DNA from: Podarcis erhardii
Lineage: Eukaryota
Strand: one strand, 5' to 3'
DNA length: 64,000 bases
Assembly: GCA_964252035.1 (NCBI GenBank)
Contig: OZ176203.1
A program made the position numbers. The first letter of the stretch is position 1; the number at the start of each line of letters is the position of its first letter. Shown here one piece after another: positions 11,401 to 17,400 of this stretch.

Positions 11401-14400
11401 CTTCCTTCCCCCACTGCAGGAGATGCCATTCCCTCTAGGTTAGGCTTTTCAGGGGCTTTTCAGAGAGGGCAGCCCAGCAAGGCCCTGACATACAATTTTA
11501 TGTATTTAGTTCTAGTGGAAAATAATCTTAGCTGAGCTACCTTTAAAAGATAAGAAACAATTCTCTTCAGAATTACACTTTGATTGAAGTGCAAAAGTTC
11601 AAAGCCAAAACTAGCTAAATATATAGTGGAGAAAATAGCACACATTCCTTAGTAATGAAAAGTATAGCAATTTATCACATGCTACATTTGTCTAGTTTGA
11701 CTTTCATTTTTTATATATATCTAAAAGTTTAAAAAAAGGAAAATTATAGGTATATTTCATTGAAGCATAAAGAACTCCTGAAGGCTCATTGCAAACTCTC
11801 ACCCCGCACGTGAAATGAAAAAAGAGGAGGCGGCAGTGGATTTAAGTAACTGCAGACAATCGGTATTGTAAATAATTGAAAATGCAAGATATCAATTAAG
11901 TTAATTGCAAGTAGCCACAGGTACCTTATCTTCGCCCATATTAAAATGCAAAGCAATTATTGCAAAGTTGTGATAAGAAATGTACACAATGAAATTCTAA
12001 CTCCAGCCACAGAGAAGCTAACTTTTATGGCACAGAGCAGAAGTTAAAGCTATAGGGCACCATCAGCTAAGATGCTTCCCTGTGGAAGCTCCATTGACAA
12101 GAAAGGGGGTTTCATGATTTCCATAGAGGCCGGCAAAGGCAGCAGCAGGTGAGCCACACCTATGGGGAAGAAACATCTACAGCCTCTCATGGAGCATCTT
12201 GCACCCACATCCTCCATTTCTACTGCAGTGAACAGGTGACCTAGCAAGCAGAGTTACTGCGGTTGGTTGGTTGGATGGATCTTTTTAGCACACTTTTTAG
12301 AGCACAGCAAACTGTACAAGATGTCTGCGTGCTCCACGTGGCATGGATGACGGCAGTAGGAAGGGACTCGCCTCTTGCTGCTCCTTGAGTCAAGTGCTCA
12401 ATTTCTGCTGCAGCAGAGAGGCAGCCTGGGAATAGGTGTTCCTAGACTTTGTTAAACGGGATGTTTTGAATGCTGAGGCACCAACTATAAGGGATGATTG
12501 CGGGCAGTTCCTGGTGTGGCACTGCTGGGTGGGCATGTCCCTTTGGTGAGAGGATGCAGCAGTAAGGAAGGCCAAGATGCGCTACTACACAATAATTATG
12601 TCTTGTGGTGAGTAATAAGCTTGGTATATGGGCTAGATAGTATACATGACAAGAAGGTCATTTTATTTTTTCTCCTCTGACTGGAGTTTAAGAGAATAAG
12701 TGTGATTTTGGTGCATTTGGGATGGCTGAGCAAAGGGTGAAGCGATGAGCAACATTGCCATTGATCCTGATGGGAGTTCATAACATGTTACAGGGTGAAA
12801 TTGGTAAACCTGATGAATTTTTAAAACAAAAATTTCTAGTTGCTGTGAAGAGGAAGATTTAGGATGTACAAAAAATACACAGAAAAATAAAGTTTGCGTG
12901 TTTTGAAAGATAACAAAAGCTTTCAGAGTCAGGCCCAACCCCACATCAAGTGCAGGAGCCCAAAGCGCCAGACATGTGGCCTGCCAAGTGAGGCGAATGC
13001 CAGGGCCCTCCGTGGCTGCCACTGGCCTCCTTTTATCTGTCTAGCCCTGAGACACTTTGGAAGAGGCACGCAAGCCTTTAAGAGAGTGTTTGAATTACAC
13101 CACCCATGTTGTCAAGTCATGTGACCAAGTGAGAGGGACTTAAGATCCACCTTAAGTTCCCCCTTTCTGGCCCCACCTCTGACACGCCCCTAGGTTAAAT
13201 TTACACATACAGAGTATTTTTATTGTGCTCAGGGTTTTTAACATATCTGTGTGAAGAAGAAAAAAACCCCCCTCACAATTTTACATTAGAAGGGTGAGAC
13301 ACGTGGTTTAATATCATAAATAAATAGCCCTTGTTTCACACAATGCAACCCAAAGAAAACCATGTCCTCTTTAGTGCAAATGGGAAGGAAAGGCTTAAAC
13401 AGTCCCTCTTCGTGTGGATGTTGGGGTCCCAAGTAAAACTGCCAGCTCCCTCCCCGATATTGATTTCAAAACACCCACACAGCCCTACCACCTAGGCAGC
13501 CCTTAAATATTAGTTCTATAAATTTTATGGGGCAAAATGGAAGCAGTAAACCCTTTTCTAAAATTATTGTTTCCTACTCCATAATGTTTTAGCTGTTCTT
13601 ATTTTATCTGTCAGCAGCCTTGAGTCAGGTAAAAGGCAGGGTAGTAGTAGTAGTAGTACTAGTAGTAAATAAGTTTGTTTATTGAAGTGCTTATGTTCAT
13701 GGGAATACATGACTCAAGCTTGCCTTGACTTATTAATTTGGTTAGCTGGTGGATTTTTGTTCGGTTGGGTTGATTTTTTCTAAGCCTAACCCTGTCTTTT
13801 AATTGGATTGTTTTACTTATGCTATAATGTTTGCTTTATTGGATTCCTTTAACTTGTTTTTAACATTTATGTGAGCAGCTTTGTGCACTGATAACAAAAA
13901 GGCCTGATAGGAATTCTCCTAATAAATTAATGGGCAACAATTTTTTACTTTTTGAATGTTGTCTAGATTTCTACAACTGATTTAGGGTATTTTTGCACTG
14001 CTGAATCAGGAAATGGCATCCGTTTCTCTCCATCAGGTCAGGTTTACTGTAAACTGAATGGTGAGCATTGATAAAGGTAAGTACACGTAAATTGCATGTT
14101 GCTTCACCATTTTTCAAACTTCAGGGCTTGAACTTCCGTTTCTTGGAACTCCTGGAATGCTCAGCGCCAGGGAGGTCTCTCTTCAGAGTCCAACAGTAGT
14201 CAGCCATCATGACTGCGTCCCAGCGACCCTGATACCTGGTCTCCATCTCTTTCATGTCCTGATGGAATCTCTCCCCCTGCTCGTCACTCATTGAACCCAG
14301 GTTCTCAGGAAACCGGTCCATATGTGAAAATAGGTAGTGCATCTTGACGCTCATGTTGCAGTCCAGGTTTCTGAAAGCAGTCAGCATGTTGTTGACAAGT

Positions 14401-17400
14401 TCTGCGTAGTTTCTGGCCTTATTGTTGCCAAGAAAGTTCTTCACTACCAGAACAAATGCCTTCCACGCTTCCAGTTCCACTTCGTTCATTGAGTTTCCGA
14501 ACTCTGGATCTCTGATGAGCAGACGGATCTGAGGACCGTCAAAGATGCCAGCTTTCAACTTCTCCATGGTCAACCCTAGAAAAGCCTGGCACAAGTAAGT
14601 GAAGCAGTCACCATCCTTGTCCAGAGCCTTGGTGAACTGCTTGATTAAGCCAAGCTTGATGTGCAGCGGTGGGAAGACTATTCTGTCTCTGTCCACCAGA
14701 GGGTCGTTGATGACGTTCCTTTTTCTGCAAGGCACCAATTCCTCCCGCACAGGGCAGTCCTTCTTCGTGTAATGCTGAGCACAATCCCACATGCACAGAA
14801 AACATGGGTACTTGGTGAAGCCAGACTGTTGTCCCAACAAAAAGTTCACCAGCTTCAGGTCAACACATATAAACCACTTATGCTGATCATAACCAATTTT
14901 CTCCAGCACATACTTCACCGCTTCATAGTTCTCCTTCAGTGTACTCGAGTGAGCCAGGGGTATAGAGGCAAACTGGTTGCCTTTGTGTAGCAGAACACAT
15001 TTCAGTGATCGCTTGCTGCTGTCAATGAACAGTCTCCAATCTTTGGGTTCGTACTGTGGCACTCCAAGCTTGAGCAGAAGCTGCACAATATCTGCACAGT
15101 ACACCAAGTCCTTCTCTTCTGAGAAAAAATGGAGGTTTTATGACTTCAAACTGATCCTTTTTCGACATAATCACCCAGAACTATCAGACCTGAATACTTC
15201 TTGTCATTAAAATAATCATTTCCAATCAAAACAATTATTCAACATGGCATTTTACCCCCACCAACTTCTTCTAAAATGCTCCACACAAGCGTACATGTGA
15301 ACAAAAATGTAAAAAAACGACATGTGGCCATAGCTCAAAAACTTGACCTGATTGAGCAAAACCAATGTGATTTTTGGATTCAGCGCATCAGATTCATCCT
15401 AAATCAACTGAAAAAATGCAGATAAAAATTTGTTGTTGACCAGCGTAAATAATGCCCTCAGATTAGATATATTGGAAATATCAACTGATTTCTTCTCGAG
15501 TTGCTATGCCACTCTAAGGTAGATTTCAAGTGGTTTAATGCTCATTTGTGCCGGTTAGTTCAGACAGACGCCATCTGCACCAGGCATTGGAAGCAGCGCT
15601 GCACCCTTTTAAACAGTCCTGGCACCCCAGGAAGAATCCTGGAACTGCTGTTTGTGCAGCTTACTGAGAGATGTTCTGATCAGAGAACTACAATTCCCAG
15701 AGTTCCCGGGGGAACGGGTTTGATCATTAAACCTCTCTTGGAATTGTAGCTCCAAGGGAGAATATGGGCCTCCTAACAACTCTCTGCACCCTTACCAAAC
15801 TATATTTCCCAGGATTCTTTGGGGGAAGTAAGTAATAATGGTTAGAAACAGCAGTGCTTCTGCATACCAGTTGCTGGAAACCACAGGAGGAGACAGGGCT
15901 CAGTGCTTGAATCCTCTTTGAGGCTTCTCACAGGCTTCACACTGTGGGAACAGGACCCTGGACTAGATGGGTCATTGGCCTGACCCAGCAGCTCTTCTGG
16001 CATTCTTATGACTGTTGAAAGTGGTGCTGCTTGAAATGTATTGTGCAGATGGGACTTGAGTAACTTACACCTGCTGACCCAGAAGCTAGTCCCACTGCAT
16101 TCAATGGCACAAAGTAAGCTTGGATGCAGGTGGCGCTGTGGTCTAAACCACAGATCCTAGGGCCTGCCAATCAGAAGGTCAGGGTTTGAATCCCCACAAC
16201 GGGGTGAGCTCCCATTGTTCGGTCCCTGCTCCTGCCCACCTAGCAGTTCGAAAGCACGTCAAAGTGCAAGTAGATAAATAGGTACTGCTCCAGCGGAAAG
16301 GTAAACGGTGTTTCCGTGCGCTGCTCTGGTTTCACCAGAAGCAGCTTAGTCATGCCGGCCACATGACCTGGAAAAACTGTCTGTAGACAAAACGTCTGCT
16401 CCCTCAGACAGTAAAGCGAGATGAGAGCCGCAACCCCAGAGTTGTTTGGGACTGGACTTAACTGTCAGGGGTCCTTTACCTTTACCTTTTAAGCTTGTCA
16501 AGATGCTTTGTCAGATGTAAAAACAAACAAGCAAAACCAAGCATACCAGAGACCAGAGTAAATCTATCATTAGACTTTAACATACCCTCCAAGGAATTTT
16601 AGGGGACACTGTATTCATGGCCAGAGAGCATCTGGTACTATACCCAAATGTTGCTAGCTCTTCAGCCAGGAGATGGTTGCAAACCATGGAAGTCCTTGGT
16701 CTGAACTTTGTGGCCAGAGGTGGGCTGTAGCTTTGAGTTAAGTGGGATGAGGGAAGCTAAGAAGGTCCTGTCTGACCTTATACAGCTACTGAGCTGTTCA
16801 TAGCCTTGTTGATCCTGCAAAACTTCTTGCGACAATAGCTCTGCTTCAGAGAGCATTCCTGGTGGCAGTGTGGGTGGGTGTTTTCCATAGTGGAGCACAG
16901 TGGCAAACGTTTATTTACCCACACTCTTTAGGGCTTCATAGGTCACCACCAGCAACTTCAATGCAATGCATAATGCTAGGGGCAGCTGCTCCAAACACTG
17001 AAATTCTCCCATGGGCTGCACACCCCTGGCATGTAGCGGGCTGCAGTGCTCTGCATTAGTTGAAGCTCCAAAGTGTTAAGAAGGACAGCCCAATGGAAAA
17101 AGCATGTTGCGGTAGTATGTTAGGTTTATGCCTGTCTGAGCATGTTTTACATTGCCATTTTCCCACTAATTTTGTTTGTCCCTGGCTAATTCAAAGCATG
17201 ATGTTCTTTAATAGGTTTCTGTTATGGCTGCTGTTGGAGTCAGGGATCTTTGAAGGAATTAGAATACAAACTGGGTAAATAATGTACCATGTAGATGACT
17301 TAGCATGTATTACATAAAATTTAAATTTTGAATGTATTGCAAAGAGAAACTTAGAGTATTTCTCCTGTGATCATTCATTTGCTTCTGGTTTGTTTAAACA

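What the first reader, a model, noticed from the sequence alone, without database searches (positions are those of the whole stretch)
13931..15445. Chapaev3 transposon with an uninterrupted 328-codon catalytic core: candidate horizontal transfer
Seen: an open frame retaining D (LFIDSS), D (CVDLK), CxxC, PPLHIKLG, E (SDEQGERF) and a basic C-terminus, between imperfect TIRs with TAA flanks. The N-terminal part is deleted (junction near 15135). WDCAQHY and KDCP look like decay of WDSRA..QH and KDWP. Established: Chapaev3 belongs to the CMC superfamily and has been reported as horizontally transferred among invertebrates and vertebrates, including lizards. Inference: a relatively young invasion; a shared-deletion non-autonomous subfamily or a co-opted copy is possible.
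Basis: partly seen in the sequence, partly recalled or inferred. Interest (0 to 1): 0.68.

Follow-up and report, generated by a model that had tools for sequence, protein, structure and literature searches.

The report
Young, truncated Chapaev3-type transposon copy
This is a fairly recent but already broken copy of a Chapaev3-type jumping gene in what looks like a lizard genome; its closest named relatives are in a firefly, a leech and a shrimp, and it is a decaying parasite copy, not a working host gene.

Summary
Window 14121..15137 (minus strand) is an open frame of 338 codons, not 328.

- **Family:** very large and animal-wide, with no Pfam model. Full-length relatives are 553-606 aa; the window copy aligns only to about residues 222-555. 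The N-terminal zinc-finger part and the start codon are therefore missing.
- **Ends:** both ends keep about 87-130 nt of imperfect inverted repeat. TAA flanks both sides.
- **Chapaev3 hallmarks:** the motifs C(2)C, LH, H(4)H and DDE are present. The confident model's nearest solved folds are RAG1 and Transib, as published for Chapaev and Chapaev3.
- **Closest relative:** an unnamed protein at 96% identity. All 14 differences and a 3-codon deletion lie on the window's branch. They fall on conserved and variable columns alike, which indicates neutral decay and argues against co-option.
- **Age:** about 1.9% nucleotide divergence, which keeps such a frame open in roughly 45% of simulations.
- **Horizontal transfer:** named relatives at 77-83% are a firefly, a leech and a shrimp, while another squamate's copies are only 65%. 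This supports transfer in the family's history.

It is a new member of a known kind, of modest interest. No direct comparison with reference Chapaev3 sequences and no genome-wide copy count was possible.

The parts
13928..13930 (.). TAA flank; putative 3-bp target-site duplication at the element's 3' side
   Evidence: It fits the TWA consensus quoted. The flank is AT-rich and the neighbouring base is T, not the A reported by Zhang 2014, so the evidence is weak.
13931..14120 (-). 3' non-coding end of the element, holding the terminal and subterminal inverted repeat (about 13931-14050). The expected terminal CAC/GTG is absent.
   Evidence: 13959-14045 pairs with 15339-15425 at 69% over 87 nt, E 0.002.
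14121..15137 (-). Open frame of 338 codons plus a TGA stop: the catalytic core and C-terminus of the transposase, with no start codon at its head (first in-frame Met is residue 116).
- D39 at 15021-15023
- D93 at 14859-14861
- E286 at 14280-14282
- C112 and C115 at 14793-14804
- L158-H159 at 14661-14666
- H267 and H272 at 14322-14339
   Evidence: One search shows D39, D93, L158 and H272 invariant, and C112, C115, H159, H267 and E286 at least 90% conserved, among 116 sequences.
14754..14783 (-). Copy-specific damage next to the C(2)C motif. Codon 119 is S to C, followed by a 9-nt in-frame deletion (the relatives read RDR there). Codon 128 is W to C (KDWP to KDCP).
15132..15150 (-). Internal deletion junction, with an in-frame TAA stop at 15135-15137. 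Homology to relatives begins at ..LxFFSEEKDLVYC. About 220-260 N-terminal codons (the zinc-finger domain) are missing.
   Evidence: The exact breakpoint cannot be fixed without DNA of full-length copies.
15138..15445 (-). 5' non-coding end of the element, holding the terminal and subterminal inverted repeat (about 15320-15445). The terminus reads CGCTGGTCAAC.., one mismatch from the CAC start reported for Chapaev3.
   Evidence: TIR consensus sequences quoted from Novick 2010.
15446..15448 (.). TAA flank; putative target-site duplication at the element's 5' side

Best explanation
Window 13931-15445 is one internally deleted, non-autonomous copy of a cut-and-paste DNA transposon of the Chapaev3 type. 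Its transposase is a DDE enzyme whose core is built like RAG1 and Transib, with a C(2)C...H(4)H zinc module.

**How full-length relatives work (inferred).** They encode about 555-600 aa. An N-terminal cysteine/histidine zinc-finger domain (the 'Chapa' domain of the literature) presumably binds the ends. The core then cuts and rejoins the element at TWA targets.

**What happened to this copy.** A deletion of roughly 0.7-0.8 kb removed the start codon and the zinc-finger domain, and joined the 5' end region to about codon 225. What remains is a 338-codon frame that cannot be translated from its head and encodes no active transposase.

**Why the frame is still open.** The copy is young, about 1.9% diverged from a master-like sequence. 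It is not maintained by selection.

**How the family spread.** Its nearest named relatives are in a firefly, a leech and a shrimp, so the family reached the host lineage (apparently a lacertid-like lizard) through horizontal transfer at some point.

**Shown:** the anatomy, the deletion, the decay pattern, the fold and the distribution of relatives. **Inferred:** the mechanism, the age in years and the transfer.
For: **1. Homology**
- 10798 representatives at E <= 0.001, of which 686 at E <= 1e-30.
- 113 longer proteins at E <= 0.001 among 1350 candidates.
- 2823 at E <= 1e-40 among 3888 candidates.

**2. Truncation**
- 11 of 11 full-length relatives align only from their residues 216-268 onward.
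- The alignment shows the missing CxxC..GDQDKxWAPHxVCxxC..DCYFC domain.
- That domain gives weak zf-AD hits, E 0.055-0.11 in 3 of 5 relatives and E 0.31 to a solved ZAD domain. The 2026 preprint describes the same link for Chapa domains.

**3. Hallmarks**
- CFLC, PPLH, HYLFSH and D39/D93/E286 are invariant or at least 90% conserved among 116 sequences.
- Zhang 2014 names C(2)C, LH and H(4)H as the Chapaev motifs, with a TWA target duplication.
- TAA lies on both flanks.
- Inverted ends.

**4. Fold**
- The model has pLDDT 93.7 and pTM 0.90.
- 46 PDB matches at E <= 0.001; the listed ranks 1-45 are all RAG1 or HzTransib, the best at E 1.5e-6 with TM 0.56-0.62. P element transposase follows at E 3e-3.
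- The language-model search also points to RAG1_RNase_H clusters.
- Kapitonov and Koonin 2015 place Chapaev and Chapaev3 as clades alongside Transib.

**5. Youth and neutrality**
- In the tree the window is sister to P0254 (SH-aLRT 95). P0254's branch is 0 and the window's is 0.048.
- There are 14 substitutions plus a 3-codon deletion against P0254.
- 4 of the 14 fall in the 102 of 338 columns that are at least 95% conserved. That is 29% against 30% expected if changes fall at random.
- In 13 relatives only 7 of 602 differences do so (Fisher p 5e-5).
- Simulation: 14 amino-acid changes correspond to d of about 1.9%, with P(no stop) about 0.45. At 12% divergence P is 0.012.
- CpG observed/expected is 0.40 in the element against 0.20 in the window and 0.15-0.22 in the flanks.

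**6. Transfer**
- Identity over the frame: leech 83.1%, firefly 82.2%, shrimp 77.2%, goby 71.5%, the squamate Rhineura 65.3%, bat 58.8%.
- In the tree the window's 20-row group holds firefly, shrimp and leech. Rhineura sits with a moth and the bat sits elsewhere.

**7. Host**
- A CR1-like reverse-transcriptase frame in the window is 96% identical to a Podarcis muralis protein and 80% to Anolis proteins.
Against: - No reference Chapaev3 sequence (Repbase, Dfam) could be compared, so the family name rests on motifs, target site, fold and literature. The primary source for the motifs, Yuan and Wessler 2011, was not held.
- The 3' terminus lacks the defining CAC/GTG and the 5' terminus reads CGC.
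- The bases next to the TAA flanks are T and A, not the A and T that Zhang 2014 reports.
- My generalised TIR motif is uninformative: 90 matches against 79.6 expected.
- The host of P0254 is unknown (an unnamed Logan record). If it is another species, the 1.9% estimate is not a within-genome age.
- Other unnamed genomic fragments closest to P0254 are 79-90% identical to it, so the family may be older than this one copy suggests.
- The CpG excess is modest: 6% of equal-sized windows reach the frame's value.
- The conserved-column test is partly circular for the 13 relatives, because they helped define the columns.
- The tree is a quick search of 46 hand-picked rows. Its outgroup was not monophyletic and several forks in the window's group are unresolved.
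Confidence: 0.82

Rival explanations
1. The frame is a co-opted (domesticated) transposase fragment, kept open by selection as an exon of a host gene or as a truncated regulator of transposition.
For: - It is the longest open frame in the window.
- The sequence just inside the frame's head, CCTCCATTTTTTCTCAG, reads like a splice acceptor (my reading).
- Gene models built on relatives exist in Rhineura and Saccopteryx annotations.
Against: - There is no start codon, and a stop sits at the junction.
- Both transposon ends are retained.
- 4 of the copy's 14 own changes hit columns that are at least 95% conserved, as chance predicts, against 7 of 602 in relatives.
- It also has a 3-codon deletion beside the zinc-binding C(2)C and a change at a conserved W.
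- Openness is expected in about 45% of neutral copies of this age.
- The acceptor-like string is simply the conserved coding sequence for LxFFSEE.
Confidence: 0.04
2. It is an old, vertically inherited Chapaev3 relic like the extinct Anolis families, with no recent invasion. The similarity to invertebrate copies reflects strong conservation of the transposase.
For: - Novick 2010 found Anolis Chapaev3 families 12-35% diverged and extinct.
- Unnamed genomic fragments nearest to P0254 are only 79-90% identical to it.
Against: - At 12% divergence a 338-codon frame stays open in about 1% of simulations.
- The copy is 96% identical to a zero-branch relative.
- The copy keeps twice the background CpG.
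- Another squamate's copies are 65% identical, while firefly and leech copies are 82-83%. This is the reverse of vertical descent.
Confidence: 0.08
3. The element belongs to a related but different lineage, either a Transib-like or other CMC group or an unnamed sister of Chapaev3, rather than to Chapaev3 itself.
For: - There is no Pfam model and no source name.
- The nearest folds are RAG1 and Transib.
- The CAC termini are not both present.
- No tree with reference sequences was possible.
Against: - The motif set C(2)C, LH, H(4)H, the TAA flanks, a transposase of about 556-560 aa and relatives with an N-terminal zinc finger match the published description of Chapaev3 families.
- Kapitonov and Koonin's Fig. 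2 species list includes Helobdella and Anolis (legend), and Helobdella proteins are 74-83% identical to this one.
- Canonical Transib transposase has no domain other than the core, according to the passage.
Confidence: 0.1

Closest known systems
Chapaev3 families Merrow and Garfield (Zhang et al. 2014, PMC4079192; sections 7 and 14 read)
   Same: - Transposase of 556-562 aa, compared with relatives of 553-569 aa here.
- Elements of about 2.3-2.45 kb.
- Motifs C(2)C, LH, H(4)H and DDE.
- TWA target duplication.
- A patchy distribution over insects, other invertebrates and vertebrates, explained by repeated horizontal transfer.
- Internally deleted and MITE derivatives.
   Different: - No sequence comparison with Merrow or Garfield was possible, because the supplement is a PDF that could not be read.
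- Their two-exon structure (78 + 478/484 aa) could not be checked here. An 11-residue gap in the firefly gene model near residue 60 is only a hint.
- This copy lacks the whole N-terminal third.
Anolis Chapaev3 families (Chapaev3-1_AC, -2_AC and non-autonomous families; Conan of Zhang 2014) described by Novick et al. 2010 (PMC3014272; passages)
   Same: - A squamate host.
- TWA target duplication.
- TIRs of the form CAC-T-4 nt-AAC. The window's 5' end reads CGC-T-GGTC-AAC.
- Non-autonomous derivatives.
   Different: - The Anolis families are 12-35% diverged and called extinct. This copy looks about 2% diverged from a master-like sequence.
- The host here matches a lacertid better than Anolis.
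Transib transposase and the RAG1 core (solved structures such as 6pqx, 4wwx, 6cg0)
   Same: - They are the nearest solved folds to the model.
- DDE residues sit on an RNase H-like core.
- There is a C(2)C plus H(4)H pair of motifs. I recall that the RAG1 zinc site has this pattern, but I did not test it here.
- Kapitonov and Koonin 2015 group Chapaev and Chapaev3 with Transib.
   Different: - Only 9-13% sequence identity in the structural alignments.
- No sequence-level hit to any solved chain with the single protein or the 116-row profile.
- Zhang 2014 and the 2026 preprint file Chapaev under the CMC superfamily, so the higher-level classification differs between papers.
Internally deleted non-autonomous DNA transposon copies in general (such as the deleted hAT copies in Anolis, Novick 2010)
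   Same: Both ends are kept, the internal coding part is lost, and the copy cannot make transposase.
   Different: Here the deletion spares the whole catalytic core, which remains an open frame.

Membership tests
Chapaev3 (Chapaev group; filed under CMC by Yuan and Wessler, and with Transib by Kapitonov and Koonin) | DDE catalytic triad in the transposase core | tested here: met
   D39 and D93 are invariant and E286 is at least 90% conserved among 116 aligned sequences. All three are present in the window frame.
Chapaev3 | Conserved motifs C(2)C, LH and H(4)H between the second D and the E (as quoted by Zhang 2014) | tested here: met
   CFLC (112-115), PPLH (156-159) and HYLFSH (267-272) are present. 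They are conserved at 90% or more, or invariant.
Chapaev3 | 3-bp target-site duplication of consensus TWA, inserted between A and T | tested here: inconclusive
However, the outer neighbours are T and A, the flanks are AT-rich, and the boundaries rest on a single copy.
Chapaev3 | Terminal inverted repeats that begin with CAC and end with GTG | tested here: inconclusive
   The 5' end reads CGC (one mismatch). At the 3' end, TAA occupies the three terminal positions. Inverted repeats of 69-75% identity exist. The motif search was uninformative.
Chapaev3 | N-terminal 'Chapa' zinc-finger domain (Kapitonov and Koonin 2015) | tested here: inconclusive
   The domain is absent from the window copy because of the deletion. 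Full-length relatives carry a Cys/His-rich N-terminus with only sub-threshold zf-AD similarity. It was not compared with a reference Chapa domain.
Chapaev3 | Placement inside the Chapaev3 clade in a tree with reference (Repbase) transposases | not testable with these tools
   No Repbase or Dfam sequences were on hand, and the supplement of Zhang 2014 is an unreadable PDF.
Transib/RAG1-like fold (structural class) | Core fold closest to RAG1 and Transib among solved structures | tested here: met
   Foldseek gave 46 matches at E <= 0.001. The listed ranks 1-45 are all RAG1 or HzTransib, the best at E 1.5e-6 and probability 1.00, using a model with pLDDT 93.7.
Domesticated transposase gene | Purifying selection on the copy, loss of the transposon ends and a translatable frame | tested here: not met
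   The copy's changes fall at random with respect to conservation. Both ends are kept. There is no start codon, and a stop sits at the junction.

The most novel reading that the evidence does not exclude
A Chapaev3 lineage entered a lacertid-like lizard lineage by cross-phylum transfer and was active there within roughly the last few tens of millions of years. The same tight cluster holds firefly, leech and shrimp copies at 77-86% protein identity. The lineage may still have intact, expressed masters: the 96%-identical P0254 type has 46 member sequences, and 557-569-aa relatives have open frames. That would overturn the picture, drawn from Anolis, of Chapaev as a long-extinct superfamily in squamates.
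Probability: 0.35. Interest if true: 0.4.

Novelty: new member of a known kind. Interest (0 to 1): 0.25.

Why it matters
Chapaev3 elements are already a textbook case of repeated horizontal transfer among animals, so one more copy adds little on its own. Three things give it modest value:
- It shows a young Chapaev3-type copy in a lizard that is not Anolis. In Anolis the superfamily is described as old and extinct.
- It ties a lizard copy to a tight cross-phylum cluster (firefly, leech, shrimp) that could be dated and used to trace transfer routes.
- The confident model shows that this Pfam-less family has a RAG1/Transib-like core. That bears on the debated position of Chapaev between the CMC and Transib groupings.

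For genome annotation the practical message is that this 338-codon frame should be masked as a transposon and not called as a gene.

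Tried and rejected
- **Pfam:** the window protein gave 0 families at E <= 1. Five full-length relatives gave only sub-threshold zf-AD and FYVE hits.
- **Solved structures by sequence:** the single protein gave only chance terpene synthase hits at E 0.59-0.95. The 116-row profile gave only a ZAD domain at E 0.31.
- **Remnant of the N-terminal domain in 15100-15470:** permissive tblastn found nothing better than E 0.02, on the wrong strand. The out-of-frame ATG at about 15166 (MSKKDQFEV..) could be the original start, but this could not be shown.
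- **Other copies or MITEs of the family in the window:** none.
- **Bacterial and archaeal genome contigs:** searched as a possible source of relatives' DNA. 29 pattern matches, none confirmed. No dN/dS could therefore be computed.
- **Cluster look-up of ten close unnamed fragments:** no names.
- **TIR motif:** CACT-N4-AACA, which I generalised from the four Anolis TIRs in Novick 2010, gave 90 matches against 79.6 expected. It is uninformative.
- **Seed-based inverted-repeat finder:** missed the terminal pair.
- **Papers:** Yuan and Wessler 2011 is not held. The supplement of Zhang 2014 is an unreadable PDF, and it may hold the transposase alignment and target-site tables that would settle membership.
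- **Literature searches for this family in lizards other than Anolis:** searches returned nothing specific.
- **Contamination or misassembly:** rejected. The sequence is continuous, has no N, and has lizard-type repeats and CpG depletion on both sides.
- **Not done:**
  - No complex prediction was run.

Full report
**What is in the sequence**

On the minus strand, 14121..15137 is an open frame of 338 codons from stop to stop. It is the longest of the 18 frames of 130 aa or more in the window; the next, 250 aa, lies in a CR1-like LINE. The window holds no N, and nothing in it looked human.

**The ends**

- The two ends of 13931-15445 are inverted copies of each other, but poor ones.
  - MAFFT gives 75% column identity over about 130 nt.
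  - BLASTN pairs 13959-14045 with 15339-15425 at 69% over 87 nt, E 0.002.
  - That pair is the only internal similarity the element has anywhere in the window.
- TAA lies outside both ends.
- The 5' terminus, read on the element's sense strand, begins CGCTGGTCAAC. The 3' terminus has TAA where CAC/GTG would be expected.

**The family**

- Pfam has no model for it, and no solved chain matches by sequence.
- The family is nevertheless very large.
  - 10798 representatives match at E <= 0.001.
  - 2823 proteins match at E <= 1e-40 among 3888 candidates of similar length.
  - 113 match among 1350 longer candidates.
- Named hits are animal proteins labelled hypothetical or uncharacterized, or chimeric gene models. 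They come from a firefly, a shrimp, a leech, a crab, a copepod, moths, beetles, a psyllid, a cockroach, a pseudoscorpion, a goby, a frog, a bat and the amphisbaenian Rhineura.

**The deletion**

- Full-length relatives are 553-606 aa. In tblastn, 11 of 11 match the window only from their residues 216-268 onward.
- The missing part is a Cys/His-rich N-terminal domain, CxxC..GDQDKxWAPHxVCxxC..DCYFC.
- That domain gives sub-threshold zf-AD hits in 3 of 5 relatives, and the family profile matches a solved ZAD domain at E 0.31.
- No trace of the domain is left in 15100-15470.
- A stop codon sits at the junction, and the first in-frame Met is residue 116. The copy therefore cannot make a transposase.

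**Is it Chapaev3?**

I could not compare it with reference sequences. No Repbase or Dfam copy was on hand, the supplement of Zhang et al. 2014 is an unreadable PDF, and Yuan and Wessler 2011 is not held. The case is therefore indirect and rests on four points.

- **Motifs and target site.** Zhang et al. 2014 (PMC4079192; passages and sections 7 and 14 read) list these hallmarks:
  - a 3-bp TWA target duplication;
  - CAC...GTG termini;
  - DDE;
  - the motifs C(2)C, LH and H(4)H.
  - The protein motifs are all present and conserved across 116 sequences, and TAA flanks fit TWA. The termini fit only in part, and the outer flanking bases do not fit the A...T rule.
- **Size and habits.** Relatives of about 556-560 aa, and a patchy spread over invertebrates and vertebrates, match Merrow and Garfield.
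- **Fold.**
  - A confident model (pLDDT 93.7, pTM 0.90) has RAG1 and HzTransib as its nearest solved folds.
  - There are 46 matches at E <= 0.001, the best at 1.5e-6. P element transposase comes far behind.
  - A language-model search also points to RAG1_RNase_H clusters.
- **Published grouping.**
  - Kapitonov and Koonin 2015 (PMC4411706; passages) place Chapaev and Chapaev3 as clades alongside Transib.
  - They describe an N-terminal 'Chapa' zinc finger that is also present in Chapaev3.
  - A 2026 preprint (10.64898/2026.01.24.700457; passages) links Chapa domains to ZAD-like fingers, which fits the weak zf-AD signal.
  - The papers disagree on the higher rank. Zhang 2014 and the preprint say CMC, while Kapitonov and Koonin say the Transib superfamily.

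**Age and selection**

- The closest relative is P0254: unnamed, from Logan, 424 aa, a cluster of 46 members. It is 95.9% identical over the frame.
- I built a quick maximum-likelihood tree of 46 rows.
  - The rows were the window, 16 named and 29 unnamed relatives, picked by hand from the 372 relatives on hand.
  - The window and P0254 are sisters (SH-aLRT 95).
  - P0254's branch length is 0 and the window's is 0.048, so every difference arose on the window's side.
- The differences are 14 substitutions and a 3-codon in-frame deletion.
- The changes ignore the family's constraints.
  - 4 of the 14 lie in the 102 of 338 columns that are at least 95% conserved, 29% against 30% expected at random.
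  - In 13 relatives only 7 of 602 differences from P0254 do so (Fisher p 5e-5).
  - This test is partly circular for the relatives.
- The window copy has 5 private departures at conserved columns. That ranks 14th of the 115 sequences kept (of 121 aligned), against a median of 1 and 0 for P0254.
- This is the pattern of neutral decay, not of a gene under selection.
- In a simple substitution simulation, 14 amino-acid changes correspond to about 1.9% nucleotide divergence.
  - At that divergence a 338-codon frame stays open about 45% of the time.
  - At 12%, the youngest Anolis Chapaev3 family in Novick et al. 2010 (PMC3014272; passages), the figure is 1.2%.
- The element keeps CpG at 0.40 observed/expected, against 0.20 for the window and 0.15-0.22 for the flanks. 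However, 6% of equal-sized windows reach the frame's value.
- With a neutral rate of about 1e-9 per site per year (recalled, not from a call), 1.9% would be on the order of 10-30 million years. This is rough.
- **Caveats:** the host of P0254 is unknown, and other unnamed genomic fragments nearest to P0254 are 79-90% identical to it.

**Host**

A CR1-like reverse-transcriptase frame at 50983-51735 is 96% identical to a Podarcis muralis protein and 78-80% identical to Anolis proteins. The window therefore most likely comes from a lacertid-like lizard.

**Horizontal transfer**

- Identity over the frame:

| Relative | Identity to the window frame |
|---|---|
| Leech (Helobdella) | 83.1% |
| Firefly (Pyrocoelia) | 82.2% |
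| Shrimp (Penaeus) | 77.2% |
| Goby | 71.5% |
| Squamate (Rhineura) | 65.3% |
| Bat | 58.8% |

- In the tree, the window's 20-row group has short and partly unresolved internal branches and holds the firefly, shrimp and leech proteins. Rhineura groups with a moth and the bat sits elsewhere.
- Vertebrate copies are thus scattered among invertebrate ones, and the nearest named relatives of a lizard copy are protostomes. This is the published Chapaev3 pattern and is best explained by horizontal transfer.
- When and from what the host lineage acquired the element is not shown. No relatives' DNA was available, because the only open collection gave no hit, so no dS or dN/dS comparison could be made.

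**Verdict**

This is an ordinary, internally deleted, non-autonomous copy of a Chapaev3-type transposon. It is young enough for its catalytic core to remain an open frame by chance. Co-option is argued against, and the shared-deletion idea stayed untested. The two-exon structure of Merrow and Garfield is quoted from the paper only.

Noticed in passing
window 50157-52375 (+), also 166-603 (+): CR1-like LINE with long reverse-transcriptase frames of 184, 250 and 153 aa. The 250-aa frame is 96% identical to a Podarcis muralis protein and 78-80% identical to Anolis proteins. This suggests a fairly young LINE copy and a lacertid-like host.
   Followed up: partly
window 26948-27778 (+): Two adjacent frames of 132 and 143 aa look like the C-terminal part of another LINE reverse transcriptase. 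They were not scanned against any library.
   Followed up: no
window 57056-57129 (+): This is the only Rfam match at gathering score in the window: a tRNA at 49 bits. It could be a tRNA gene or the head of a tRNA-derived SINE.
   Followed up: no
window 13640-13668 and about 5380-5440: Two microsatellites. A (GTA)n run lies 260 nt left of the element. A dinucleotide run shows up as HTHTHTHT in a frame at 4925-5470.
   Followed up: no
proteins P0255, P0259, P0263 (relatives, not in the window): The N-terminal domain of full-length relatives gives weak zf-AD/ZAD similarity (E 0.055-0.31). A 2026 preprint proposes the same link for Chapa and RAG1 N-terminal zinc fingers.
   Followed up: partly
protein P0263 (unnamed ENA record, 164-kb contig): This is an open 557-aa full-length relative, 87.5% identical to P0254, on a long genomic contig. 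Such a frame would rarely stay open under neutral decay, so some lineage of this subfamily may still be intact somewhere. The host is unknown and I did not look for it.
   Followed up: no
window 15022-15180 (-): A 52-aa frame starts at an ATG (MSKKDQFEV..) just upstream of the junction and is one base out of phase with the main frame. It may be the remains of the original start codon joined out of frame by the deletion, but this is unproven.
   Followed up: partly
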